From a virus (lineage: Duplodnaviria; Heunggongvirae; Uroviricota; Caudoviricetes), in IMG/VR virus record IMGVR_UViG_2663762992_000009: a stretch of 28,397 nt of DNA; one strand, given 5' to 3'. Shown piece by piece: positions 3,106 through 11,233 of this stretch. Within the stretch, counting starts at the first letter, position 1, and each line of letters starts with the position of its first letter. The notes under the pieces are model-generated. The model was not told the origin of the DNA. It saw only the letters and a list, made by a program, of their open reading frames with translations, and searched no databases. The position numbers were made by a program, and so were the translations under genes.

Positions 3106-3459
3106 TTACCCGCCCCTCCCCCTGTTCCAGTGTGAATCGGGGTCAAGCGGGATCCCATCAGCATCACAGCCAGTCATTCTCCCGCTCTTTTCCATACGCT
3201 GTTTGGTTGAGTCGTGATGGGGTTTACATAACCCTTGCCAGTTTCCTCTGTCCCAGAACAGCTTTTGCGCCCGGGAGATATCTGCGGGATTTCCTGTTAT
3301 GAGAGCATCTTTCAACCTGTGTGGCGTGATATGATCGACCACAGTCGCCAGCTCAATCCTTCCCAGTGCCTGACACATAATGCATAAAGGATGTTCGCGC
3401 AGGAATGCCTGGCGGGCTTTACCCCATCTGCTGTCATAGATGCGCGGTTCTTTGTTCAT
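3106..3459 (-). CDS. HNH endonuclease (terminase-associated)
   Basis: 117-aa ORF with Cys pairs (CIMC ... CKPHH) and His residues (VDHITPH) in HNH-like spacing; lies immediately upstream of the small terminase, as is typical for HK97-like cos phages. Confidence 0.8.
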   Translation of the reverse strand: MNKEPRIYDSRWGKARQAFLREHPLCIMCQALGRIELATVVDHITPHRLKDALITGNPADISRAQKLFWDRGNWQGLCKPHHDSTKQRMEKSGRMTGCDADGIPLDPDSHWNRGRGG

Positions 3460-3477
3460 ACCACCATTACCTGTAAA

Positions 3478-3711
3478 TCAGTGCGGACACCGTTCAATCC
3501 TCACTAAGCCGTAAAGCATCTGCCTCTTCACTTCGCCGTTCTCTATGGTCGCGTGGCCATATTCATCACATGCAACAGCGATTACTTCACCTTTCTCATC
3601 ATCAGCAGTGAGCGCGCGCTTAACATCAACACCATCAAGATAGACAGTGTACCGCTCTACTCTGATATCAATCTTCCTGCCGGGATCATCATCTAATACA
3701 GTGAGGCGCAT
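3478..3711 (-). CDS. small hypothetical phage protein
   Basis: 77-aa ORF with normal GC content, same strand as neighbours and tightly spaced before the HNH gene; no family recognised. Confidence 0.45.
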   Translation of the reverse strand: MRLTVLDDDPGRKIDIRVERYTVYLDGVDVKRALTADDEKGEVIAVACDEYGHATIENGEVKRQMLYGLVRIERCPH

Positions 3712-4267
3712 TCCCCCCTCCTTGTTATTTATACGCGTGCAATGCGACTATGATTGCCGCACGTCCCTTGTCGGCATGGACGTTTAGCACGTGCTGGCAT
3801 CGGCGTTGCCCTGTTTGTTGGATAGAAATCATGTTGTACTCGGAGAGAAAAACGGAAATGGCAAATAGTGGACAATATTCATAAATAGAGAGAATCCACA
3901 CGGTCGCCGCCCCGTAACAGGTTGGATCGCATAACAGGCCCCATCAAATGAGAATGAATATCGATTATACTAATTAATGCTTAGAACAGGATCATATACC
4001 TGTATCAGGTCAGTCCACTCTTCACCTAAACGTGCAGATGTGTTAATCCGTCTCCCTGCTTAGCACCACTCTTTTGGTGATATACCCGTTTTGGCATAGT
4101 CGGCGAGAGACTGGTGTTGCAGCACTGTCCAGTCCTGTTTTACCATAAACCCCCTAGTTTTATCTTTTAATTAATAGATATTAGTAAGATGAATCAATGA
4201 TGTGCTCAGAGCAAAGCACATCCTGCGTTGCTTTTAGTGCCATTTAACCTATAGAGAGATATGACGC

Positions 4268-4513
4268 GTGAGAAAGTTAATCTGTCTAATTTCGTTCGTT
4301 GCAACATGCGGATTCGGGTATCAGGCATACCAGCATCATGGACTGGCTTCTCTACTGGCTTTCTTAGTCAGCTTAGGGGCTTTTCTAACTGCTGTAGCCA
4401 ACTTAATAAGTGACAAGAAGAAGTCATCCTCTATAAGCCAAGTGATTGGTAATAACTCTTCAGGAATACAAGTCAGTGGTAATTTAACCATTAATGAAAA
4501 GGACAAAAAATGA
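4268..4513 (+). CDS. small membrane protein (two predicted TM helices), first gene of AT-rich moron
   Basis: GTG start with GAGAG about 9 nt upstream; hydrophobic segments LICLISFVATCGF and LASLLAFLVSLGAFLTAVANLI; visibly AT-rich; stop overlaps the next start (ATGA). Confidence 0.5.
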   Translation: MRKLICLISFVATCGFGYQAYQHHGLASLLAFLVSLGAFLTAVANLISDKKKSSSISQVIGNNSSGIQVSGNLTINEKDKK

Positions 4514-5418
4514 GTCTTTTCGATCATAAGTCGGGTCAACATGTCGGAGATGGTTCTACCGCAATCCAAGTAACCGGTGATGCTATCATTGGTAATACTA
4601 CTACTGAAGTAGTTACTATCTGTGAATTAGTAGTTCAAGCACAAATGGCTTCTTTAAAAGAGGAAGCATATAAACTTGTAAACCAACGAGCGATAGAATT
4701 TGGTAATCAGATTGCAGCTAAACTTTCTAGTGATCTTGATCATAAATTAAAAGAGAAATTATCCGACCCTGACATTCAATATTCGATGAACCAAGCTGTA
4801 ACTCAGGTGGCTCGAAAAGGATTTGATGAAAAATCGGAGTTACTTAAAGAGCTAATCGTTTCTAAAATTCAAACTGAAGAAGAAGAGGATAGTATAGTTA
4901 TAGATCACGCTCTTGAGGTGACATCTAAATTAACAACAAACGACATTAAATTTCTCTCTCTAATATATTACCTCAGAAACATAAATAAGATACGAAACGG
5001 TATTAACATGACAGCTCTTGCTGAAAGAAATGAAACTCACTTTGGATTAATTGGCTTTACCGTAGAGCAAAACCATTCAGCCCACAAAGAATACTATGCT
5101 CGCTATGATATTGATTACATTAAATTCTTAGATAAAATAGAGTCTTTGAGAAAAATAAACATTGATCTCCTCAGCTTAAAAGGCGTTATCTTCACAGACA
5201 AGCAATACATAACAAACTATCAAGACCTACTTGAAAAAAGGACTGGAATCACCAGCTTTGAAAGCGATGAGATGTTCTTTGAAACATTTCCTGCTTTAAA
5301 GTTAACTCTAGATGCATTTGGCGTATCGACCATAAATGACTTTAATTCATATGTTTTAAATCCAATTGGCAACCTGATTGCTCAAAACTTTCTTCGGGCT
5401 CGGAACTTCCTTCAATAG
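4510..5418 (+). CDS. hypothetical 302-aa protein, second gene of AT-rich moron (candidate defence/abortive-infection or conversion function)
   Basis: Long ORF in an AT-rich segment; AAGGA RBS about 8 nt upstream; translationally coupled to the upstream small ORF; opposite orientation to the flanking late genes; no family recognised. Confidence 0.7.
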   Translation: MSLFDHKSGQHVGDGSTAIQVTGDAIIGNTTTEVVTICELVVQAQMASLKEEAYKLVNQRAIEFGNQIAAKLSSDLDHKLKEKLSDPDIQYSMNQAVTQVARKGFDEKSELLKELIVSKIQTEEEEDSIVIDHALEVTSKLTTNDIKFLSLIYYLRNINKIRNGINMTALAERNETHFGLIGFTVEQNHSAHKEYYARYDIDYIKFLDKIESLRKINIDLLSLKGVIFTDKQYITNYQDLLEKRTGITSFESDEMFFETFPALKLTLDAFGVSTINDFNSYVLNPIGNLIAQNFLRARNFLQ

Positions 5419-5597
5419 GATAAAAATTATCGTTTGTAAACATTCGACAGAAAAGGGTATTTTTATTAAGATACCCTTCAAATCCACACTTACTACAAAT
5501 ATATCTATAAAAAATAATTTAATTATCGAGATACATATCATTACATGATGTAGAGCTGAAAACTATTCAGCCCAACTTACATTTATCACATTCATAT

Positions 5598-6170
5598 TCA
5601 TTTAAAATGATTTACAACCTTAACGTCTCTGTCCTTTAACTCCATAATTTTTCCTAGTTGCTTGCGTTCCAACTCAATTTTACTGATACCAGTCAGTTGG
5701 TTATTCGCCTTCTCAATAGTAGCCAGCAGCGGCCCGATCCAGAGAACAGCCTGGCAGTATGTCAGAGAGCTGGCGGTAATGGTGTCACCACCGGCTGCAT
5801 CAGCGTTCCGGGGATCGGGGTACATTGCGCTGGCACGTAAACGGTACGCGTGGTCGAGCAGCCCGTCAGCGATATCAGCAGGAACAGGCAAATCACAGGT
5901 TTTTTCACGACGGAGTATCTCCCGGTATTCAATAACTGTTTTTTCGGAACCGGCATCAATCAGGGAGTTAAGGCGGCTGGTATTATCAGCAACCTGATTA
6001 AACCGGTTAAAGTTGAAAACCTGAGTGGCGATAACCTGCCCCTGTAGCGCGTTATCATTGCGAAGGATCCGGTTATCACTTTCTGATACAGCAAGGTCGG
6101 CCCGGCTGAATACCAGCATAACAACCACAACCAGGAACGAAATTATTGCGATAATCGTTATACGGTTCAT
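5598..6170 (-). CDS. Rz: i-spanin Rz
   Basis: N-terminal TM helix (ITIIAIISFLVVVVMLV) followed by a coiled-coil periplasmic domain; last gene of the lysis cassette; contains an embedded +1-frame lipoprotein ORF. Start placed at the ATG at 6170. Confidence 0.8.
   Translation of the reverse strand: MNRITIIAIISFLVVVVMLVFSRADLAVSESDNRILRNDNALQGQVIATQVFNFNRFNQVADNTSRLNSLIDAGSEKTVIEYREILRREKTCDLPVPADIADGLLDHAYRLRASAMYPDPRNADAAGGDTITASSLTYCQAVLWIGPLLATIEKANNQLTGISKIELERKQLGKIMELKDRDVKVVNHFK
5762..5908 (-). CDS. Rz1: o-spanin Rz1 (lipoprotein embedded in Rz, +1 frame)
   Basis: Embedded ORF with signal peptide and lipobox (LISLTGCS) and a Pro-rich C-terminus. Start placed at GTG 5908 with GGGAGA 9 nt upstream; the ORF-track start at 5959 is an alternative. 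Confidence 0.65.
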   Translation of the reverse strand: MKKPVICLFLLISLTGCSTTRTVYVPAQCTPIPGTLMQPVVTPLPPAL

Positions 6171-6174
6171 GGCT

Positions 6175-6312
6175 CTACCACCAGCGAATCGCCACAATCA
6201 GGCGCGCAATACCATACAGCACAACCGTCAACGCCACAGCCCGTATAGCCCATGCCGTAGCACTACTGATTTCTTTTGTTAACGGAGCATCTATTTCAAG
6301 GCCGTTTTTCAT
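6175..6312 (-). CDS. possible small membrane protein within lysis cassette
   Basis: Short ORF with a hydrophobic C-terminus (AIRAVALTVVLYGIARLIVAI) between the endolysin and Rz; overlaps the Rz start; the start codon is uncertain. Confidence 0.3.
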   Translation of the reverse strand: MKNGLEIDAPLTKEISSATAWAIRAVALTVVLYGIARLIVAIRWW

Positions 6313-6400
6313 AGTCAACCTCAACAGAATTCGTTTATACTTCCTCACAGGGAACACACCTCCCTATACATAATTTCTCCCTTGCTTTCCTCAAGGTGCA

Positions 6401-6450
6401 GAAACAGAAAACCCCGACTGTTTGCCGCAATCGGGGTTTTCGCTTTTAAT
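6401..6450. terminator. bidirectional rho-independent terminator-like hairpin between endolysin and Rz
   Basis: AAAACCCCGA (6408-6417) pairs with TCGGGGTTTT (6431-6440) around a 13-nt loop; T-rich tracts follow the stem on both strands. Confidence 0.5.
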
Positions 6451-6460
6451 ACACGCTCAC

Positions 6461-6883
6461 TTAACCCGCCAGTTCGAGCGCGCGGATAAACGTATCAAAG
6501 CTGTATGGCTGGCTACCGTTCTCGTGCTTAATAATGGCCTGCAACAGCTTCATCATGAAACGACTGTCACTGGTATCAATGCGCTGGTCGGGAGTAACAC
6601 CCGTCGCCTGAGCCACGTTGTTGATATACGCCAGCGTGTTGTTCTCGTTCGGCGGCGCCCAGCGTTTAATAATGCCGGTAACCGTGTTCAGCCCGTGCTT
6701 ACGCTGGTAATTGCGCAGGATGATGATCATCGCCCGGATACCATACTCAGGCGTAGTGAACTGGCAGAATGATTTATCAGTGCGCTGTGCTTTGGGTACC
6801 AGGCCCTGCCACTCATCACCCCACCGGATATTGCCGGGGTTGTTGTTGCGGATCCCGCGAGAAATTTTACTGGTTCTCATCAT
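6461..6883 (-). CDS. putative endolysin (muramidase-like), assigned mainly by position
   Basis: 140-aa ORF immediately after the holin, start overlapping the holin end; soluble, no TM segment; motif RNNNPGNIR. No similarity to lambda R or T4 lysozyme recognised by eye. Confidence 0.55.
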   Translation of the reverse strand: MMRTSKISRGIRNNNPGNIRWGDEWQGLVPKAQRTDKSFCQFTTPEYGIRAMIIILRNYQRKHGLNTVTGIIKRWAPPNENNTLAYINNVAQATGVTPDQRIDTSDSRFMMKLLQAIIKHENGSQPYSFDTFIRALELAG

Positions 6884-7202
6884 TTATCCCTGCCCGTTTT
6901 TTAAGCGCACTGATGGCAATTTCACGTAATTTATCCACGCCGACGAAGCCAATCACGCCACCGACAAAGGGTGATATCGATACAGGAAGGCCAAACGCAT
7001 CCAGCGCACTGGTGATACATAAAGAAAGGGCGCCACAAAGGACGCCCTCAAGCCATTTATTTTTTCGCGTGACGCCATCGTATATCAGGCGGGCATAAGC
7101 AATGAGTCCGGCCATTGATGCCCCCAGTAACTGGGGCCACGCATTTTTGAGTCCGGTCAAAACCGCCGCCCAGAATTCAGGGTTTTTGTCATTCATTTTC
7201 AT
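6867..7202 (-). CDS. class I holin, lambda S-like, with dual-start motif
   Basis: C-terminal region resembles lambda S as recalled (LDAFGL ... GFVGVDKLREIAISALKKRAGINDENQ); hydrophobic helices; starts MKM (ATG at 7202 and 7196), like the lambda S107/S105 dual start; SD-like GGTGAGG upstream. Confidence 0.8.
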   Translation of the reverse strand: MKMNDKNPEFWAAVLTGLKNAWPQLLGASMAGLIAYARLIYDGVTRKNKWLEGVLCGALSLCITSALDAFGLPVSISPFVGGVIGFVGVDKLREIAISALKKRAGINDENQ

Positions 7203-7243
7203 ATACCTCACCCCCGGTTTCCGGATGGTGCTGTGTACTGGTG

Positions 7244-7268
7244 AAAAAATTCAGCCTTCCGGGCTGAG
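7244..7268 (-). terminator. candidate intrinsic terminator between tRNAs and holin (minus strand)
   Basis: Hairpin TCAGCC (7251-7256) / GGCTGA (7262-7267) with a 5-nt loop; on the minus strand it is followed by a run of six U. Confidence 0.45.
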
Positions 7269-7467
7269 TATGCTGCAGATCTGAATACGAAAAAGGCCAC
7301 GCAAATGCGCAGCCTTTATAACGCGAGTTTTATTATTCGGAGGCACTCCATCCAACAAACCACCCATGGTTGCCAGGATTTTAACGGAGTGCTTTTGGAT
7401 GAGCGCTGGACCGGAAGGTCAGTATTTTTACACAGCAATTTTGCAAAAAGCAGCGCCCATTCAAAAC

Positions 7468-7543
<76 letters not shown>

Positions 7544-7546
7544 TTT

Positions 7547-7623
7547 TGGTGGCCCTTGCTGGACTTGAACCAGCGACCTGGCGATTATGAGTCGCACGCT
7601 CTGACCAACTGAGCTAAAGGGCC
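7547..7623 (-). tRNA. tRNA with CAU anticodon (Ile2-lysidine type or Met)
   Basis: Full cloverleaf on the minus strand: acceptor GGCCCTT/AAGGGCC, D-arm GCTC/GAGC, anticodon loop CTCATAA, T-arm GCTGG-TTCAAGT-CCAGC, CCA end; closely resembles the E. coli ileX sequence as I recall it. Confidence 0.85.
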
Positions 7624-7630
7624 ATGACGC

Positions 7631-7737
7631 TGCGGTGCCGGACCGCTATTATTCCGGTAGATTGCGCGCTGATACACAATCTGCTTCGCGAAAATTCTCC
7701 ATTTCAGCAAGCCTCAACGCTAGTGAGATTCACCGCA
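7631..7737. repeat. repeat unit A (~100-nt element with complementary termini TGCGGTG...CACCGCA)
   Basis: Shares 5' end tgcggtgccgg and 3' end cgctagtgagattcaccgca with the units at 8860-8963 and 9074-9166; abuts the tRNA-Ile gene. Confidence 0.7.
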
Positions 7738-7938
7738 ATGAGAAAAATTTATCGTCCGCAGATTCTGGCAGGCAAGGCCTCTTCCAAATAAATTACTCAA
7801 AATGCGAAACTGCGCACGGAGAATTAAACCTTCAAAAAGCTAAGACATCACACTTGACCGGTTCAGAAAAAAATCATTATGTTCTTTCTGCTTCTCCCAT
7901 GAAGCGACCTCAATTATTTTCTGCTTATGTGTGATTTT

Positions 7939-7966
7939 GCCCGTTCTGTATGACGGGCTTTTTTCA
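7939..7966 (+). terminator. rho-independent terminator hairpin, plus orientation (element copy 1)
   Basis: GCCCGT (7939-7944) / ACGGGC (7953-7958) with an 8-nt loop, followed by TTTTTT; the preceding ~45 nt resemble the element at 9328-9400. Confidence 0.6.
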
Positions 7967-8014
7967 ACGTCATCATCCCTGTTCATTAAATGTGTATTCA
8001 TCCATCCAGGTTTA

Positions 8015-8449
8015 CTAATTCCATACAGTTCCCCTGGCGACCGAATAACGCCCTGCCCCCAGTAATGCAACTGACAGAGAGCCAACAAAAAAATACACCA
8101 GGCTTTCTATTCCCCACGCGCCAGTACTTTCGAGCATCCATGTTTCCTCTACCCCCACCAGAAGCCAGGCCACAATCATTGTAAAAGCCAGCAACAGTGC
8201 TGCGGGGCGAGTAAGAACCCCAAGAATAATCAGGCCTGGAGCCAAAACCTCTCCCACAATTGCTCCGTATGCGAAAAATCCAGGTAAGCCGTTAGCTATA
8301 AGCATGCCGCTAATACCTTCAACTCCTGCAAAGAGCTTATGCAAACCATGAAATAACATCAGCCCACCAACAGCAAGTCTTAACAGGAACTTACCAAAGT
8401 CAGCATGGGATAAGATCTGGTTAATTTTATTCAGTACGATAGTAATCAT
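8015..8449 (-). CDS. DoxX-family inner-membrane protein (cargo gene in the Q-to-lysis region)
   Basis: 144-aa ORF with four hydrophobic segments and a DoxX-like N-terminus (FGKFLLRLAVGGLMLFHGLHKL); GGAG SD 9 nt upstream of the ATG at 8449. Confidence 0.7.
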   Translation of the reverse strand: MITIVLNKINQILSHADFGKFLLRLAVGGLMLFHGLHKLFAGVEGISGMLIANGLPGFFAYGAIVGEVLAPGLIILGVLTRPAALLLAFTMIVAWLLVGVEETWMLESTGAWGIESLVYFFVGSLSVALLGAGRYSVARGTVWN

Positions 8450-8859
8450 TGTTCATCACTCCAAGTAAAAAAGGAATGAGAAAAACAAATCACCAGCAGG
8501 CTACAACAGTCAATCTGTTCGGCTGTAAATCACAAACAAGTTAAATAGACTGTTAACACCCACCCTACCTGAATTATTACGCCAAAAAAGGAGATAAAGC
8601 GATAAATCTTATTAGCATGTAACTATTGTTCAACTCAATAGAGCCCATACACTAAGTTTTATTGCCCCTAATAATCCGATGACCAACAGAATGATGCTAA
8701 TTAAGAATACCTGATTCGTTGTAAATCTGATACTGCGTAAATATGCCTTTAGAGCATTAGCAGTTCTGTATTTATTCTGCATTTTCCCGCTCAGAAATCA
8801 CATCAATGACCAATTTAAAAGTAGAGCCCGAATAATCTATCTCCACGACCCGATATGAG

Positions 8860-8963
8860 TGCGGTGCCGGTCGCAACCCGGTGAAACGTATCCATGGTGT
8901 GGTGCAATACATACTGGCAGAATGAATAGTGCCACACCCCTCACGCTGGTGAGATTCACCGCA
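8860..8963. repeat. repeat unit B
   Basis: Same conserved termini as unit A. Read on the minus strand it shows a 7-bp terminal helix, a D-arm-like hairpin (CTCA-CCAGCG-TGAG), a long central hairpin and a T-arm-like hairpin (CCGG-GTTGCGA-CCGG). Confidence 0.7.
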
Positions 8964-9073
8964 GGAGGTAACGTATAAACGGCAGGTGCTTTAGATCAAG
9001 CTTTTTATCATGTCGGCGAAATGAAAAAGGGCTCACCGAAGTGAGCCCTGAATTACCGCCGTTTTCAATTTGC

Positions 9074-9166
9074 CGCAGTGCCGGGTGCCTCCCGATGGTA
9101 TTAACCGCAACGTCAACAGTGGAAGCGAAACCTGACGATGCCCCTACGCTAGTGGGATTCACTGCA
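9074..9166. repeat. repeat unit C (more diverged copy)
   Basis: 5' end gcagtgccgg and 3' end cgctagtgggattcactgca match units A and B with a few substitutions. Confidence 0.6.
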
Positions 9167-9372
9167 ACGGGGGGAACCTATTACCCGCAGACAGCGGCTG
9201 ACAAGATATTTATTTTGCTGAAATGCCAAAATGTGAATCTGCGCATATGAAATTAAACAGAACTTAAACAATTGCAGATACGAACTTGATAGGTTTATGA
9301 AGAAATTACTACGGTCCTCAGGCTTCCCCCTATGAAGCACTTAAGCCTCTTACCTTTTCCAATTGTGATTTT

Positions 9373-9400
9373 GCCCGCTATCTGACGCGGGCCCTTTTTT
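9373..9400 (+). terminator. rho-independent terminator hairpin, plus orientation (element copy 2)
   Basis: GCCCGC (9373-9378) / GCGGGC (9387-9392) with an 8-nt loop, followed by CCTTTTTT; upstream sequence is conserved with copy 1 (atgaagc ... tgtgattttgcccg). Confidence 0.65.
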
Positions 9401-9416
9401 ATACGGAGAACTGAGA

Positions 9417-9491
9417 ATGCCGTGTCATGAAAAAATGGCTATCGCAATCTGTGTTATTGCGCTCATCTTCGCACTGATTTTTGGCAAGTAG
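9417..9491 (+). CDS. candidate 24-aa hydrophobic small ORF (MPCHEKMAIAICVIALIFALIFGK)
   Basis: ATG at 9417 preceded by GGAGA with 7-nt spacing; single hydrophobic helix; lies between a plus-strand terminator and a minus-strand terminator hairpin. Confidence 0.3.
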   Translation: MPCHEKMAIAICVIALIFALIFGK

Positions 9492-9506
9492 GTCCACCTG
9501 AAGCCG

Positions 9507-9541
9507 TCTTTTAAAAACGACAAAACCCGCACCGTGGCGGG
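9507..9541 (-). terminator. candidate tR'-like intrinsic terminator downstream of Q (minus strand)
   Basis: GC hairpin CCCGC/GCGGG (9526-9541); on the minus strand it is followed by UUUUGUCGUUUUUAAAA; about 270 nt downstream of the Q stop. Confidence 0.45.
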
Positions 9542-9807
9542 TTCATCTGGTGTTCATGTTCTGCATCCTTGACCTCGCGATACAGCTTTGCGAAGCATAC
9601 AGTGATTGAAGCAGTTTATGGCTCAAATTGCAATACTTTTTCAGCGACGTAATTTGACCTTAATCATATGCTTTATTACTCTTCGCCTGCATTTAAACAC
9701 TGATATAACTTAGTTATACTTCCATTCATCTTGCACATTGATATTTCCACAAAAATCACCCGCAGCTTTTTACTGTCAAGTTTCAGTTAGTGGATAAGCA
9801 CAACTCA

Positions 9808-10347
9808 TCACACATTCCTATCAATGGAATCCCGTAGCGGGATATAAAGCATGTATTCAACCATATACAGCCATTGGTCGATTCGTCGCCGACAGGTAAC
9901 ATAACTCCAGTCAGGGTATTTTTCCTGAAGTTTCTCAGCTATCTTTCGCTTACTCATTCCCCGTCCTTCGTAACGCTGGTGAAGCAGTGCCTTTAGTGCG
10001 GGATGATCTGCCAGAACTGCCCCGATAACCCGGTCGATTATCAGTGCTTCAGAATCAGTACAGTATGCAAGGTAGCTTTTCTGCTTACCGTTCAATATCT
10101 CACGTAAAAATTGCTCCAGTTCAGGCCTGGTAGTGCCTGATTTTTTAAGCAGCCTGAGCGCATCACGGGCGCCTGTGCGGGTGATTTTTTTACTGACCAG
10201 CAACTGATTGAAGATATTTCCCGGATGGCCATTTCCGATATAAGACCAGCGCCCCCACATTCTTAGCTTTCCCTGTACCCATAACGTCTCAAGCGTAGTG
10301 AGACGAAGCATTTCACCAGGTTTACCTGTCGTGACCGGGTAGATCAT
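9808..10347 (-). CDS. late-gene antiterminator Q-like protein
   Basis: 179-aa ORF immediately upstream of the tRNA/lysis region and after the nin genes; basic C-terminal region with HTH-like character (KRKIAEKL ... RRRIDQWL); start overlaps the upstream gene's stop. Confidence 0.75.
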   Translation of the reverse strand: MIYPVTTGKPGEMLRLTTLETLWVQGKLRMWGRWSYIGNGHPGNIFNQLLVSKKITRTGARDALRLLKKSGTTRPELEQFLREILNGKQKSYLAYCTDSEALIIDRVIGAVLADHPALKALLHQRYEGRGMSKRKIAEKLQEKYPDWSYVTCRRRIDQWLYMVEYMLYIPLRDSIDRNV

Positions 10348-10634
10348 ACTAATCCCTCCTCTCTCCAGATTTGTTGCGTACGCATTACGCCTTCGGCATG
10401 CATTAACCGAAGTTCGGTGCGGGTAAAGTCTGTTGTTTTTATCCGGCCATCAATCAGGTCATGACAACAGCTACAGGCAATAGATGCCTGCATATCGTTG
10501 GGTTTGGTTGATGCTCCACAGGTACCGGCCAGACGGTAATGGGCCAGAACCGAGGTTTCAGGGTTATGGTTACAGTATCCGGGAATTCTCACCTGGCACT
10601 GCCGACCTTTAGCTGCTTTACGTAACCCGGACAT
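10344..10634 (-). CDS. YbcO-like (DUF1364) nin-region protein, putative nuclease
   Basis: 96 aa; Cys-rich pattern (CQVRIPGYCNHNPETSVLAHYRL ... IACSCCHD) closely resembles E. coli DLP12 YbcO as I recall it. Confidence 0.75.
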   Translation of the reverse strand: MSGLRKAAKGRQCQVRIPGYCNHNPETSVLAHYRLAGTCGASTKPNDMQASIACSCCHDLIDGRIKTTDFTRTELRLMHAEGVMRTQQIWREEGLV

Positions 10635-11233
10635 CAGGCGAACTCCAGCAACTGCATCGCTACATTTTCAGCTTCCTGTGGTGTTCTGAATTTTCGACAG
10701 AGGATGAAATTCCACAGGACGTTAAAGACATCCTTATAGAATTGCCGGAACGTATCTTCATCCATACGGGAGAAAGAAATAGATTTGGGAATTCTGCGGC
10801 GACAATTATCCGGGAGAACAACTTCATCGAAGTAACCAGCCTGAACCGTCACCCATGCCCGGTATGGCTCGAAAGACTTCAGTAAGGCAACATCCCCAGT
10901 ACGTAACTGCCCTTCTTTCAACAGAAATTCATCCGCTGCGGAGGTTAAAACATCACCGTATTGATGACCGGACATCTCAACAAGATAAGTGACAAAGCGA
11001 TTTATCAGCGAAAGTTCATCTGGTGAAAGCACACCACCGACAGGTGTCCAGTAATCGAAGCCCAGTTGCAGAAGTTTGAAGAAACGCTTATGAAAGGCGT
11101 AGTTGCGGACACGTCTGAAATCAGCGTGTATCCACTCGCCAGTTTTGACTGAATGTACAAAGCCCTCACTCTCCGGTGTTGCCGGGAGCAGGATCCCTGA
11201 TGCGGTCTGTTTGACCAGTTGTAAGTGCGCCAT
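10634..11233 (-). CDS. conserved lambdoid nin-region protein (DUF1367-like, tentative)
   Basis: 199-aa ORF of normal GC, start/stop-coupled to the YbcO-like gene; family assignment is from memory only. Confidence 0.55.
   Translation of the reverse strand: MAHLQLVKQTASGILLPATPESEGFVHSVKTGEWIHADFRRVRNYAFHKRFFKLLQLGFDYWTPVGGVLSPDELSLINRFVTYLVEMSGHQYGDVLTSAADEFLLKEGQLRTGDVALLKSFEPYRAWVTVQAGYFDEVVLPDNCRRRIPKSISFSRMDEDTFRQFYKDVFNVLWNFILCRKFRTPQEAENVAMQLLEFA

What the first reader, a model, noticed from the sequence alone, without database searches (positions are those of the whole stretch)
6401..7268. Intrinsic terminators inside and just upstream of the lysis cassette
Hairpins with U-tails lie between the tRNAs and the holin (7244-7268) and between the endolysin and Rz (6401-6450, bidirectional). 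Full lysis-cassette and spanin expression would then depend on Q-mediated terminator readthrough; a polymerase not modified by Q would stop before Rz/Rz1.
Basis: partly seen in the sequence, partly recalled or inferred. Interest (0 to 1): 0.25.

Follow-up and report, generated by a model that had tools for sequence, protein, structure and literature searches.

The report
Guard terminators in a prophage lysis cassette
Two of the three reported hairpins look like real transcription terminators in a lambda-like prophage, and the one between endolysin and Rz is the first part of a widespread, unannotated terminator-plus-ribosome-site-hairpin leader that always precedes a tiny membrane-protein gene.

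Summary
The window is a lambdoid prophage with its late genes on the minus strand: Q, sRNA/DoxX/tRNA morons, holin, endolysin, small ORF, Rz/Rz1, terminase.

The hairpin at 6407-6441 (T_C) is real: -30 kcal/mol, z -4.6, with a U-tract. The hairpin at 7251-7267 (T_B) is weak (z -0.5) and absent from relatives. Its position, about 110 nt before the holin start, is kept in 21 of 23 related upstream regions, with at least seven different stems.

T_C does not belong to the endolysin or to Rz. It is the 5' end of a roughly 75-nt leader:
- A-tract, hairpin and U-tract;
- a second helix that occludes the Shine-Dalgarno site;
- in this window, an 8-codon uORF and a third hairpin.

This leader always precedes a 45-60 aa membrane-protein gene. 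It occurs behind at least five endolysin types and inside a tail operon. Matches to it occur in 1237 of 5426 E. coli genomes and in several isolated phages, and it is never annotated. Both helices show compensatory changes.

Read-through by Q-modified polymerase is the natural reading but is untested. A polymerase lacking Q would already have stopped far upstream. The kind is ordinary; the conserved cassette is modestly new.

The parts
9808..10347 (-). Q-type late antiterminator gene (179 aa)
   Evidence: Pfam DUF1133 at 2.5e-86 and Phage_antitermQ at 6e-07 (29.8 bits, cutoff 26). phrog_753 'anti-termination protein Q-like' at 3e-64.
9523..9544 (-). Candidate tR', the first terminator-like hairpin after Q. 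It lies about 200 nt downstream of a perfect TTGACA at 9777-9772.
   Evidence: Terminator scan and sequence reading. The rough d-score is only -6. The assignment as pR'/tR' is an inference.
9018..9195 (-). STnc100-family sRNA gene with its own terminator (9049-9028)
   Evidence: Rfam RF02076, 66.2 bits against a gathering score of 47. Terminator scan. d-score +23.
7479..7623 (-). tRNA(CAT) gene at 7623-7547 plus a truncated tRNA-like remnant at 7536-7479
   Evidence: ARAGORN calls one gene. Rfam tRNA scores are 71.2 and 44.8 bits, the second covering model positions 8-63 only. The pair is about 89% identical to the ileZ-argN pair of Stx phages.
7283..7317 (-). T_A: intrinsic terminator (hairpin 7317-7292, tail UUUUUCGUAUUC) that ends the moron/tRNA region 90 nt before the holin start
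   Evidence: Folds at -19.1 kcal/mol, z -4.4. d-score +18. A terminator-like site is present in 21 of 23 distinct upstream regions of related holins. In about 18 of these it sits at -110 to -117. At least 7 different stem sequences occur.
7243..7267 (-).
   Evidence: Folds at -9.1 kcal/mol, z -0.5. d-score -25. It occurs only in the window and in the identical contig L001.
6867..7202 (-). Holin (111 aa) with an MKM dual-start motif
   Evidence: Pfam Phage_holin_3_1 at 1.9e-37 and phrog_126. Start coordinates. Gene callers give 111 aa.
6461..6883 (-). Endolysin (140 aa)
   Evidence: phrog_873 'endolysin' at 5e-65. No Pfam or NCBIfam hit. It lies between holin and Rz.
6399..6447 (.). T_C / helix 1: A-tract (6447-6437), 14-bp hairpin (6441-6407, GC core 6436-6412) and U-tract (6411-6399). 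It is terminator-like on both strands and stronger on the minus strand.
   Evidence: The covariance model scores 92.6 bits, with a single copy in the window. Of 14 pairs, 7 show compensatory changes. 94% of cells over all 19 modelled pairs are paired (92% for this helix), against 39-67% when the partner columns are slid.
6373..6405 (-). Helix 2: UUUCU/AGAAA plus CCUUG/CAAGG. It occludes Shine-Dalgarno site 1 (AAGGGAGAA, 6383-6375).
   Evidence: Folds at -9.5 kcal/mol. In a protein-anchored sample, 5 of 12 pairs show compensatory changes. 85.8% of cells are paired against 44-60% when slid. The alternative arms are CGTTA/TAACG and CCTG/CAGG.
6345..6371 (-). 8-codon uORF (MYREVCSL*). Its UGA stop overlaps the GUG start of the small ORF (GUGA).
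   Evidence: Read from the sequence. The same design is present in E. coli and Salmonella type-B variants. Its translation is inferred.
6346..6368 (-). Helix 3: a 9-bp hairpin that occludes the second SD (GGGAGG, 6364-6359) and the GUG start (6348-6346)
   Evidence: Folds at -10.8 kcal/mol, z -3.3, with 1 of 200 shuffles folding as well. Its stem does not vary among relatives, so there is no covariation evidence.
6175..6348 (-). Small membrane-protein gene (57 aa, ending IRWW), function unknown
   Evidence: phrog_1115 at 9e-12 and phrog_4493 at 4e-11. An identical 57-aa gene call exists on public contigs. All homologues are 'hypothetical' and have no Pfam domain. The N-terminal KYKRILLRLT is conserved as protein.
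5598..6170 (-). Rz i-spanin (190 aa), with Rz1 o-spanin embedded at about 5959-5762 (lipobox LTGC)
   Evidence: phrog_214 at 2.6e-47 and phrog_456 at 1e-06. Coordinates.
4510..5418 (+). Convergent plus-strand gene (LPO_1073/Vpar_1526 family). The first terminator-like site downstream of it on the plus strand is T_C.
   Evidence: NCBIfam NF045477 at 2.9e-30. Pfam PF28206 is recorded on public contigs. Relaxed plus-strand terminator scan.

Best explanation
T_A and T_C are genuine Rho-independent terminators placed at module junctions of a Q-dependent late operon. T_B is marginal.

In the lysogen, T_A ends transcription of the sRNA/DoxX/tRNA morons about 90 nt before the holin start and shields the lysis genes.

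T_C is the first of up to three locks in the leader of a mobile small-membrane-protein cassette inserted between endolysin and Rz:
1. a terminator that stops any polymerase not made terminator-resistant;
2. a helix that pairs the distal U-tract (UUUCU) and CCUUG with the Shine-Dalgarno region;
3. in this window, a hairpin over the second SD and the GUG start. It can only be opened by translation of an 8-codon uORF whose stop overlaps that start.

During lytic growth, Q-modified RNA polymerase starting downstream of Q reads through tR', the sRNA terminator, T_A, T_B and T_C. It transcribes holin, endolysin, small ORF, Rz/Rz1 and the terminase genes as one message, and the small protein is made in small amounts.

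Shown here: the structures, their conservation and covariation, and their strict linkage to the small gene. Inferred: termination, Q read-through, translational repression and uORF coupling.
For: Strength of the hairpins:
- T_C: -30 kcal/mol, z -4.6. T_A: -19 kcal/mol, z -4.4. Both have U-tracts and positive rough d-scores.

T_A is conserved by position. 21 of 23 distinct upstream regions of related holins have a terminator-like site, mostly at -110 to -117. They lie behind different morons and use at least 7 different stems.

T_C is conserved by structure:
- Helix 1 has 7 of 14 pairs with compensatory changes. 94% of cells over all 19 pairs are paired (92% in helix 1), against 39-67% when slid.
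- Completely different stems occur in divergent leaders.

T_C is linked to the small gene, not to its upstream neighbour:
- In the endolysin-anchored sample, 8 of 8 small-ORF copies carry the hairpin, and loci without the ORF lack it.
- In the protein-anchored sample, 39 of 48 distinct upstream regions pass a simple automated hairpin-plus-T-tail test. About 44 carry a terminator on visual inspection.
- The upstream gene varies: SAR lysozyme, E. coli-type lysozyme, phrog_873 endolysin, apparent GH19 and GH108 endolysins, antirepressor, methylase and baseplate gpV-like genes.
- Close relatives L002 and L003 have Rz directly after the endolysin.

The terminator must be read through in at least one setting. 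In SEN34 the module sits in the middle of the essential tail operon of a phage with a Q gene and a single co-oriented late operon.

Translational locks:
- Helix 2 covaries: 5 of 12 pairs, 85.8% paired against 44-60% when slid.
- The whole leader folds into three hairpins at -42.9 kcal/mol, z -4.9.
- Start codons are GTG or TTG in most family members.

Other context:
- Q gene identification.
- No minus-strand promoter-like site lies between T_A and the holin, and promoter-like sites overall are not above the shuffle expectation.
- Published phage-genome analysis notes that intra-late-operon terminators are common and of unknown role. It suggests they block non-antiterminated transcription or attenuate (PMC8022706). 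Constitutive pR' terminated at tR' is documented for Stx phages (PMC7547250).
Against: - There are no transcript data. Termination efficiency and Q read-through are not measured.
- No source of unmodified polymerase between T_A and T_C is predicted, so the benefit of a second lock at T_C in this position is unclear.
- T_B fails every test of significance.
- The pR'/tR' assignment is weak: a poor -10 hexamer and a d-score of -6.
- The Q here belongs mainly to DUF1133, whose antitermination activity I did not find tested.
- Helix 2 and helix 3 rest on few independent lineages. About three sequence classes support helix 2, and helix 3 never varies.
Confidence: 0.6

Rival explanations
1. T_C and similar internal terminators are partial attenuators. 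Even Q-modified polymerase terminates at some frequency, so genes after the terminator (small ORF and spanins here, baseplate and fibre genes in SEN34) are transcribed less than those before it. This would tune stoichiometry.
For: The idea is suggested for phage L internal terminators (PMC8022706). In SEN34 the module separates the tube, tape-measure and gpV genes from the baseplate and fibre genes.
Against: Established knowledge of lambda Q is that the modified polymerase is highly resistant to intrinsic terminators. This rival does not explain why the terminator is tied to one small gene family rather than to operon position. It also does not explain why that gene is additionally locked at the translation level.
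Confidence: 0.15
2. T_C matters mainly on the plus strand. It stops antisense transcripts coming from the convergent prophage-expressed gene at 4510-5418 before they enter the endolysin and holin genes.
For: - The upstream A-tract, which is the U-tract on the other strand, is conserved.
- The plus-strand fold has z -3.6.
- The hairpin after the convergent gene (5446-5478) has no U-tract, and T_C is the first terminator-like site on the plus strand after it.
- Opposite-strand genes follow Rz in lambda (bor, from general knowledge) and in several loci seen here.
Against: The plus-strand tail is interrupted and the d-score is -7. In the SEN34-type context the nearest opposite-strand gene is 4 kb away. 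An upstream A-tract is also common in one-way terminators. This rival does not explain helix 2 or the link to the small gene.
Confidence: 0.1
3. The hairpin is not used as a terminator. It acts as an RNA stability or processing element (a 3' protector of the holin-endolysin segment or a 5' protector of the small ORF-Rz segment), or as the Hfq-binding 3' end of an sRNA derived from the endolysin 3' region.
For: Prophage late regions are rich in Hfq-binding sRNAs that end at such terminators. In many relatives a conserved spacer of about 100 nt lies between the endolysin stop and the hairpin.
Against: In this window the hairpin starts 20 nt after the endolysin stop, so there is no room for a separate sRNA body. 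No Rfam family matches. The canonical GC stem plus U-tract is exactly what termination needs and more than a stabiliser needs.
Confidence: 0.1
4. The conserved block is only a mosaic joint. It would be a shared sequence at which lambdoid phages recombine, conserved by recent exchange rather than by selection for structure.
For: The block shared at 94.6% with Citrobacter braakii and other contigs is exactly 6448-6375, while the flanks are unrelated or much more diverged. Different small-ORF subtypes and different endolysins are joined at it.
Against: Compensatory changes occur in both helices. Entirely different stem sequences sit at the same place before homologous small genes. This rival may hold in addition to a regulatory role, not instead of it.
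Confidence: 0.08

Closest known systems
Lambda tR' and other intrinsic terminators overridden by Q-modified RNA polymerase (processive antitermination of lambdoid late operons)
   Same: A Q-family gene is followed by co-oriented late genes, with several GC-hairpin/U-tract terminators in the path. The lysis genes are the first late genes.
   Different: T_A and T_C lie 2.5 and 3.4 kb downstream of Q, not at the promoter-proximal tR' position. The Q is a DUF1133 / Q82-like type, not lambda Q. Read-through has not been tested.
Intra-late-operon terminators noted in P22-like phage L (PMC8022706)
   Same: These are predicted terminators inside an operon that has only one promoter. The roles proposed there, blocking non-antiterminated transcription or attenuation, are the same as considered here.
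   Different: Here the terminator is shown to be a conserved, covarying part of one gene's leader and to move with that gene between operon positions.
Morons of lambdoid phages (Hendrix and Juhala concept: an extra gene with its own promoter and terminator inserted between late genes)
   Same: An extra small gene lies between two conserved neighbours and is absent from close relatives. It carries a terminator and is found at different insertion points.
   Different: The terminator is upstream of the gene, not downstream. No promoter is detectable. The gene is tightly joined to the next gene, with the Rz start 4-5 nt after its stop.
Translational control structures of small lethal membrane proteins: the lambda S sdi stem-loop, and hok/mok-type leader-ORF coupling with SD sequestration
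   Same: SD- and start-occluding hairpins lie in front of a roughly 50-aa single-pass membrane protein. A short leader ORF has a stop that overlaps the start codon. Start codons are non-ATG.
   Different: There is no antisense RNA partner, and no sequence similarity to S, Hok or Mok. Toxicity of the small protein is unknown. This resemblance is drawn from memory and is a lead, not a test.

Membership tests
Rho-independent (intrinsic) terminator | GC-rich stem-loop more stable than expected for its composition | tested here: met
   T_C z -4.6 and T_A z -4.4, with 0 of 200 shuffles folding as well. T_B is not met: z -0.5, 48 of 200.
Rho-independent (intrinsic) terminator | Run of U immediately 3' of the stem on the transcribed strand | tested here: met
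   T_C minus strand UUUUCUGUUUCUG and T_A UUUUUCGUAUUC. The T_C plus-strand tail is interrupted (UUUUCGCUUUU), and the T_B tail begins with A.
Rho-independent (intrinsic) terminator | Intergenic position, co-directional with the flanking genes | tested here: met
   T_C lies 20 nt after the endolysin stop. T_A lies between the tRNA remnant and the holin.
Rho-independent (intrinsic) terminator | Hairpin maintained in evolution (compensatory changes or replacement by other stems at the same place) | tested here: met
   T_C: 7 of 14 pairs compensatory, with other stems in divergent leaders. T_A: at least 7 different stems at about -110 to -117. T_B: not met.
Rho-independent (intrinsic) terminator | Transcript 3' ends at the U-tract in vivo or in vitro | not testable with these tools
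   No transcript data are available. K-12 Qin and Sakai Sp5/Sp15, for which public data exist, lack the T_C module.
Q-dependent lambdoid late operon | Q-family antiterminator gene directly upstream of the late genes | tested here: met
   PF06530 at 29.8 bits (cutoff 26), DUF1133 at 2.5e-86, phrog_753 at 3e-64.
Q-dependent lambdoid late operon | Constitutive late promoter with a Q-binding or pause site, and a promoter-proximal terminator (tR') | tested here: inconclusive
   TTGACA at 9777-9772 has a poor -10 hexamer. The hairpin at 9544-9523 lies about 200 nt downstream. No Q-binding element was identified. The consensus scan listed no minus-strand promoter there.
Q-dependent lambdoid late operon | Lysis and morphogenesis genes co-oriented downstream with no internal promoter | tested here: met
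   Holin, endolysin, small ORF, Rz, HNH and terminase genes are all on the minus strand. Promoter-like sites number 10 against 12.8 +/- 3.7 expected, and none lies between T_A and the holin.
Moron (autonomous inserted transcription unit) | Extra gene between conserved neighbours, absent from close relatives | tested here: met
   L002 and L003 share 94% identical holin and endolysin but have Rz directly after the endolysin.
Moron (autonomous inserted transcription unit) | Own promoter upstream and own terminator downstream of the gene | tested here: not met
   The terminator is upstream. Only about 35 nt lie between the U-tract and the SD, and no promoter match is found there. The gene's stop lies 4 nt before the Rz start.
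Any described RNA family (Rfam 15) | Match at or above the gathering score | tested here: not met
   There is no family at T_A, T_B or T_C. The best sub-threshold hits at T_C are sar (25 bits against 43) and rimP leader (27 against 47) on the plus strand.

The most novel reading that the evidence does not exclude
The terminator + SD-occluding helix (+ uORF) leader may be a dedicated gating device. It would make a so far unstudied family of 45-60 aa membrane proteins (phrog_1115/4493, ending RWW) expressible only from antiterminated late transcripts and only at very low level. The protein itself may be a new lysis-cassette component, for example a regulator of lysis timing or of spanin or endolysin action, that is harmful if made early. 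The cassette would then be a new type of mobile 'antitermination-gated' gene that has spread through late operons of enterobacterial prophages, including Stx phages.
Probability: 0.2. Interest if true: 0.55.

Novelty: new variant of a known kind. Interest (0 to 1): 0.35.

Why it matters
Internal terminators in phage late operons are often seen and rarely explained. Here one of them can be tied to a specific gene. It is the conserved first element of a two- or three-step lock in front of a tiny membrane protein. That protein sits in the lysis cassettes of many Salmonella, Citrobacter, Klebsiella and E. coli prophages, including Stx-converting phages.

This gives a concrete and cheap experimental handle on two open points. 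The first is what intra-operon terminators are for. The second is whether lysis cassettes of lambdoid phages hold an additional, tightly restrained component.

It also shows that a positionally conserved guard terminator precedes the holin in this phage group. That is relevant to how lysogens avoid leaky lysis.

If the terminators turn out to be ordinary and the small protein dispensable, the finding remains a useful annotation for prophage genomes.

Tried and rejected
- Near-identical matches in the phage, E. coli and genome collections: none over the whole region. Only contig L001 is identical, so the host remains unknown.
- Rfam at gathering and at E <= 1: nothing for the three hairpins. 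The weak plus-strand 'sar RNA' and 'rimP leader' hits at T_C were rejected as generic terminator similarity.
- Is a terminator after the endolysin general for this endolysin family? No. 36 of 139 loci have a terminator-like site, but most of these are hairpins inside the Rz coding sequence.
- More divergent copies of the T_C module in Photorhabdus, Xenorhabdus, Erwinia and other relatives, searched with model R1: none.
- Model strains with public 3'-end data: K-12 Qin and Sakai Sp5/Sp15 lack the module. There an antirepressor cassette begins exactly where the hairpin would start.
- A DNA pattern for the U-tract with the wrong spacing returned mostly unrelated phage junctions of the type 'terminator-UUUCUGGAG-ATG'. 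This showed that compact terminator-SD junctions are common and that the U-tract sequence alone is not diagnostic.
- An alignment of all small-protein subtypes was too diverse to seed a locus search. The type-A subset worked.
- Promoter inside the module: none found by scan or by eye.
- Literature search for a description of an element between R and Rz: nothing in the held library.
- The d-score re-implementation is rough and depends on where the hairpin boundaries are set.
Full report
**Context**

The window is part of a lambdoid prophage whose late genes lie on the minus strand. Reading from high to low coordinates:
- a Q-type antiterminator gene at 10347-9808 (DUF1133 and Phage_antitermQ, phrog_753);
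- an STnc100-family sRNA at 9195-9018 with its own terminator;
- a DoxX-family membrane-protein gene at 8449-8015;
- a tRNA(CAT) gene at 7623-7547 and a truncated tRNA remnant at 7536-7479;
- the holin at 7202-6867 (Phage_holin_3_1);
- a 140-aa endolysin at 6883-6461 (phrog_873);
- a small ORF at 6348-6175;
- Rz at 6170-5598 with embedded Rz1 (phrog_214 and phrog_456);
- a pair of convergent plus-strand genes at 4268-5418;
- HNH and terminase genes.

No phage, plasmid-free E. coli genome or species-representative genome in the collections holds this region at high identity. Only one 6.7-kb IMG/VR contig (L001) is identical.

**Observation check**

- T_C, the element at 6401-6450, is real and strong. 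It is a 14-bp hairpin at 6441-6407 with a 9-bp GC-rich core, followed on the minus strand by UUUUCUGUUUCUG. Folding gives -30 kcal/mol, z -4.6, and none of 200 shuffles folds as well.
- On the plus strand the same palindrome is weaker. It folds at -23 kcal/mol, z -3.6, and its U-tract is interrupted.
- T_B, the element at 7244-7268, exists as a 6-bp hairpin plus AUUUUUUC. It cannot be told from chance: z -0.5, with 48 of 200 shuffles folding as well.
It folds at -19 kcal/mol, z -4.4, with tail UUUUUCGUAUUC.
- A rough d'Aubenton-Carafa-type score ranks them T_A (+18), T_C minus strand (+10), T_C plus strand (-7), T_B (-25).
- Terminator-like sites in 4000-11000 are about twice the shuffle expectation: 13 against 6.3 +/- 2.7.

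**The terminators before the holin**

I compared the 250 nt upstream of all holins at least 80% identical to this one.
- 21 of 23 distinct regions contain a terminator-like site. In about 18 it sits at -110 to -117 from the holin start.
- The stems differ. At least seven sequences occur, for example GGCTGCGC.., GGTCACC.., GCCAGCC.., CCCGCC.., GCCCTGGC...
- The genes upstream of these terminators also differ.
- The U-tract and the following TTCAGG junction are shared.

T_A is therefore a positionally conserved terminator that closes whatever moron lies upstream and sits just before the holin leader. In the window it is at -90 because the leader is shorter.

The segment homologous to T_B forms no hairpin in any relative.

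**T_C belongs to a mobile leader**

The 74 nt from the A-tract to the first Shine-Dalgarno site (6448-6375) are about 95% identical in contigs whose flanks are unrelated or much more diverged.

Distribution of the block:
- An exact-pattern scan found it in 51 viral contigs.
Together with loci fetched earlier, 133 places also have a stable upstream hairpin, while chance matches to the pattern lack one.
- blastn finds it in 1237 of 5426 complete E. coli genomes.
- It is also in Salmonella phages SPN3UB and FSL SP-016, E. coli phage GER2 and several Stx1a- and Stx2a-converting phages.
- I saw no regulatory or RNA annotation for it; at most a 'hypothetical protein' CDS overlaps the match.

Genes upstream of it:
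- a SAR-type lysozyme (61 places);
- the E. coli-type lysozyme (32);
- the phrog_873 endolysin of this window (13);
- apparent GH19 and GH108 endolysins, identified by eye from sequence motifs;
- an antirepressor;
- a methyltransferase;
- in SEN34-like phages, a baseplate gpV-like gene in the middle of the tail operon.

What is constant is the gene after it. This is a 45-60 aa protein with one C-terminal hydrophobic segment, usually ending IRWW. It comes in two main subtypes (VIDISKLIREL.. and RKYKRILLRLTMKNGLE..). Its stop usually lies within a few bases of the Rz start.

Linkage tests:
- In the sample anchored on the endolysin, which is blind to the module, all 8 small-ORF copies carry the hairpin. 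No locus without the ORF does.
- In a sample anchored on the type-A small protein, 39 of 48 distinct upstream regions pass a simple automated hairpin-plus-T-tail test. About 44 carry a terminator on visual inspection, including ones with unrelated stem sequences such as GGCCCAG..CTGGGCC. The exceptions are doubtful homologues or partial matches.
- Close relatives of this prophage with 94% identical holin and endolysin have Rz directly after the endolysin.

**Structure evidence**

- Helix 1 (alignment A1, 37 distinct module sequences). Of its 14 pairs, 7 have compensatory changes, for example A-U to G-C at the fourth pair and A-U to U-G or G-C at the sixth. 94% of cells over all 19 modelled pairs are paired (92% in helix 1), against 39-67% when the partner columns are slid. 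No shuffle reaches the observed score.
- Specificity. A covariance model built from A1 scores the window copy at 92.6 bits and finds no second copy in the window.
- Helix 2. Downstream of the U-tract, a second helix pairs UUUCU and CCUUG with CAAGG and AGAAA, that is, with the Shine-Dalgarno region. My DNA patterns had fixed this sequence, so I tested it on the protein-anchored sample. There the same geometry is built from other sequences (CGUUA..UAACG-AGGAA, CCUG..CAGG). 5 of 12 pairs show compensatory changes, and 85.8% of cells are paired against 44-60% when slid. The number of independent lineages is small, about three classes.
- The window's longer leader. The first SD serves an 8-codon uORF (6371-6345, MYREVCSL*). 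A third hairpin (6368-6346, z -3.3) covers a second SD and the GUG start at 6348. The uORF stop overlaps that start (GUGA).
- The whole leader. The 117-nt leader folds into three consecutive hairpins at -42.9 kcal/mol, z -4.9.
- The coding call. The 57-aa reading is supported by protein-level conservation of KYKRILLRLT in relatives where an ATG follows the first SD directly. It is also supported by independent gene calls of an identical 57-aa product.
- Annotation of the protein. Every homologue is annotated 'hypothetical', and there is no Pfam or NCBIfam family.

**Mechanism**

The best-supported reading has three parts.
1. T_A and T_C are functional intrinsic terminators that a Q-modified polymerase reads through.
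2. T_A protects the holin from transcription of the upstream sRNA, DoxX and tRNA units in the lysogen.
3. T_C is the transcriptional lock of a small-gene cassette that is also locked at the level of translation.

The SEN34 case is informative. A strong terminator in front of essential baseplate and fibre genes, in a phage with a Q gene and one co-oriented late operon, must be read through.

T_C cannot be the reason why spanin expression needs Q. A polymerase without Q would already have stopped at the candidate tR' (9544-9523), at the STnc100 terminator or at T_A. The consensus scan gives no convincing promoter between T_A and T_C. It lists one weak 9-of-12 match at 6579-6552 inside the endolysin gene, at a frequency no higher than in shuffles. 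So the local benefit of T_C is unclear, and it may simply be carried with the cassette.

The rivals cannot be excluded by computation:
- partial attenuation;
- a mainly plus-strand role against the convergent gene at 4510-5418, for which T_C is the first terminator-like site;
- an RNA-stability or sRNA-end role;
- a pure recombination joint.

The last is the least likely because of the compensatory changes.

**Comparison with what is known**

Internal terminators in lambdoid late operons are known, and their roles are explicitly called unknown (PMC8022706). Promoter-proximal termination and Q read-through are textbook and are documented for Stx phages (PMC7547250).

The cassette resembles a moron but fails its definition. 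The terminator is upstream and no promoter is found. The SD occlusion and leader-ORF coupling in front of a small membrane protein resemble lambda S sdi and hok/mok. This comparison is from memory and was not tested.

No Rfam family and no paper in the searchable library describes the element.

**Verdict**

The terminators themselves are ordinary members of a known kind.

The added value is threefold:
- the holin-proximal terminator is positionally conserved;
- the endolysin-Rz hairpin is the first element of a widespread, covarying, unannotated leader tied to an unstudied small membrane protein;
- this makes the role of one class of intra-operon terminator directly testable.

Noticed in passing
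window 9018-9195 (-); weaker partial matches at 8817-8987 and 7631-7737 (-): An STnc100-family sRNA gene (66 bits, above the gathering score) lies between Q and the DoxX gene, with its own strong terminator at 9049-9028. Two sub-threshold partial copies lie further downstream. A 2026 preprint links STnc100 and PasD sRNAs to prophage late regions next to holin-lysozyme operons.
   Followed up: partly
window 9435-9491 (+): An 18-codon, very hydrophobic ORF (MAIAICVIALIFALIFGK) lies on the strand opposite to the late genes. It is framed by a plus-strand terminator (9373-9392) and the palindromic hairpin at 9523-9544. It looks like a type I toxin-like small peptide gene sitting inside the presumed pR'-tR' region.
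   Followed up: no
window 7190-7250 (-): The holin begins MKMNDK, a dual-start motif like lambda S107/S105. The 61 nt before and over the start fold into a structure that covers the SD (-18.1 kcal/mol, z -2.9), reminiscent of the lambda sdi element.
   Followed up: partly
window 7283-7478 (-): About 190 nt between the tRNA remnant and T_A are shared at 85-96% with other prophage contigs (L017, L048, L182) and end at T_A. This may be an sRNA-like unit directly upstream of the holin. There is no Rfam match.
   Followed up: partly
window 7479-7623 (-): The tRNA that ARAGORN calls Met(CAT), and the truncated tRNA next to it, are about 89% identical to the ileZ-argN pair of Stx phages. The first is therefore probably a tRNA-Ile2 (lysidine) gene, and the second a decayed argN.
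   Followed up: partly
window 7026-7049 (-): A terminator-like hairpin (9 bp, 6 GC) lies inside the holin coding sequence. Its U-tract is poor (d-score -10), so it is probably only a coding-sequence hairpin.
   Followed up: no
window 6461-6883 (-): The endolysin has no Pfam or NCBIfam family. PGAP calls its E. coli homologues 'structural protein'. Its PHROG relatives are domains inside tape-measure, head and tail-injection transglycosylase proteins. This is an endolysin type that standard annotation misses.
   Followed up: partly
window 4268-5418 (+): Two plus-strand genes (81 aa, and 302 aa of the LPO_1073/Vpar_1526 family) are inserted against the direction of the late operon, between Rz and the HNH/terminase genes. 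The hairpin after them (5446-5478) has no U-tract on either strand.
   Followed up: partly
L212 2320-2500; L213 2420-2500; L215 2920-2990; L047, L048, L054, L063 about 3400-3490: In many relatives a conserved spacer of about 100 nt (CTGAAAAATG..CGCGG.CGGATAACAC.AAATCC..) lies between the endolysin stop and the T_C-type hairpin. It is absent from the window. In Sakai Sp5 and Sp15 it is kept, but an antirepressor cassette starts exactly where the hairpin would begin.
   Followed up: partly
loci L325-L412: Many unrelated phages, for example P2-like tail sheath genes, have the compact junction 'GC hairpin-UUUUUCGUUUCUGGAG-N5-9-AUG'. Here the distal U-tract runs straight into the Shine-Dalgarno site of the next gene. 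This appears to be a common terminator-SD arrangement in phage genomes.
   Followed up: no
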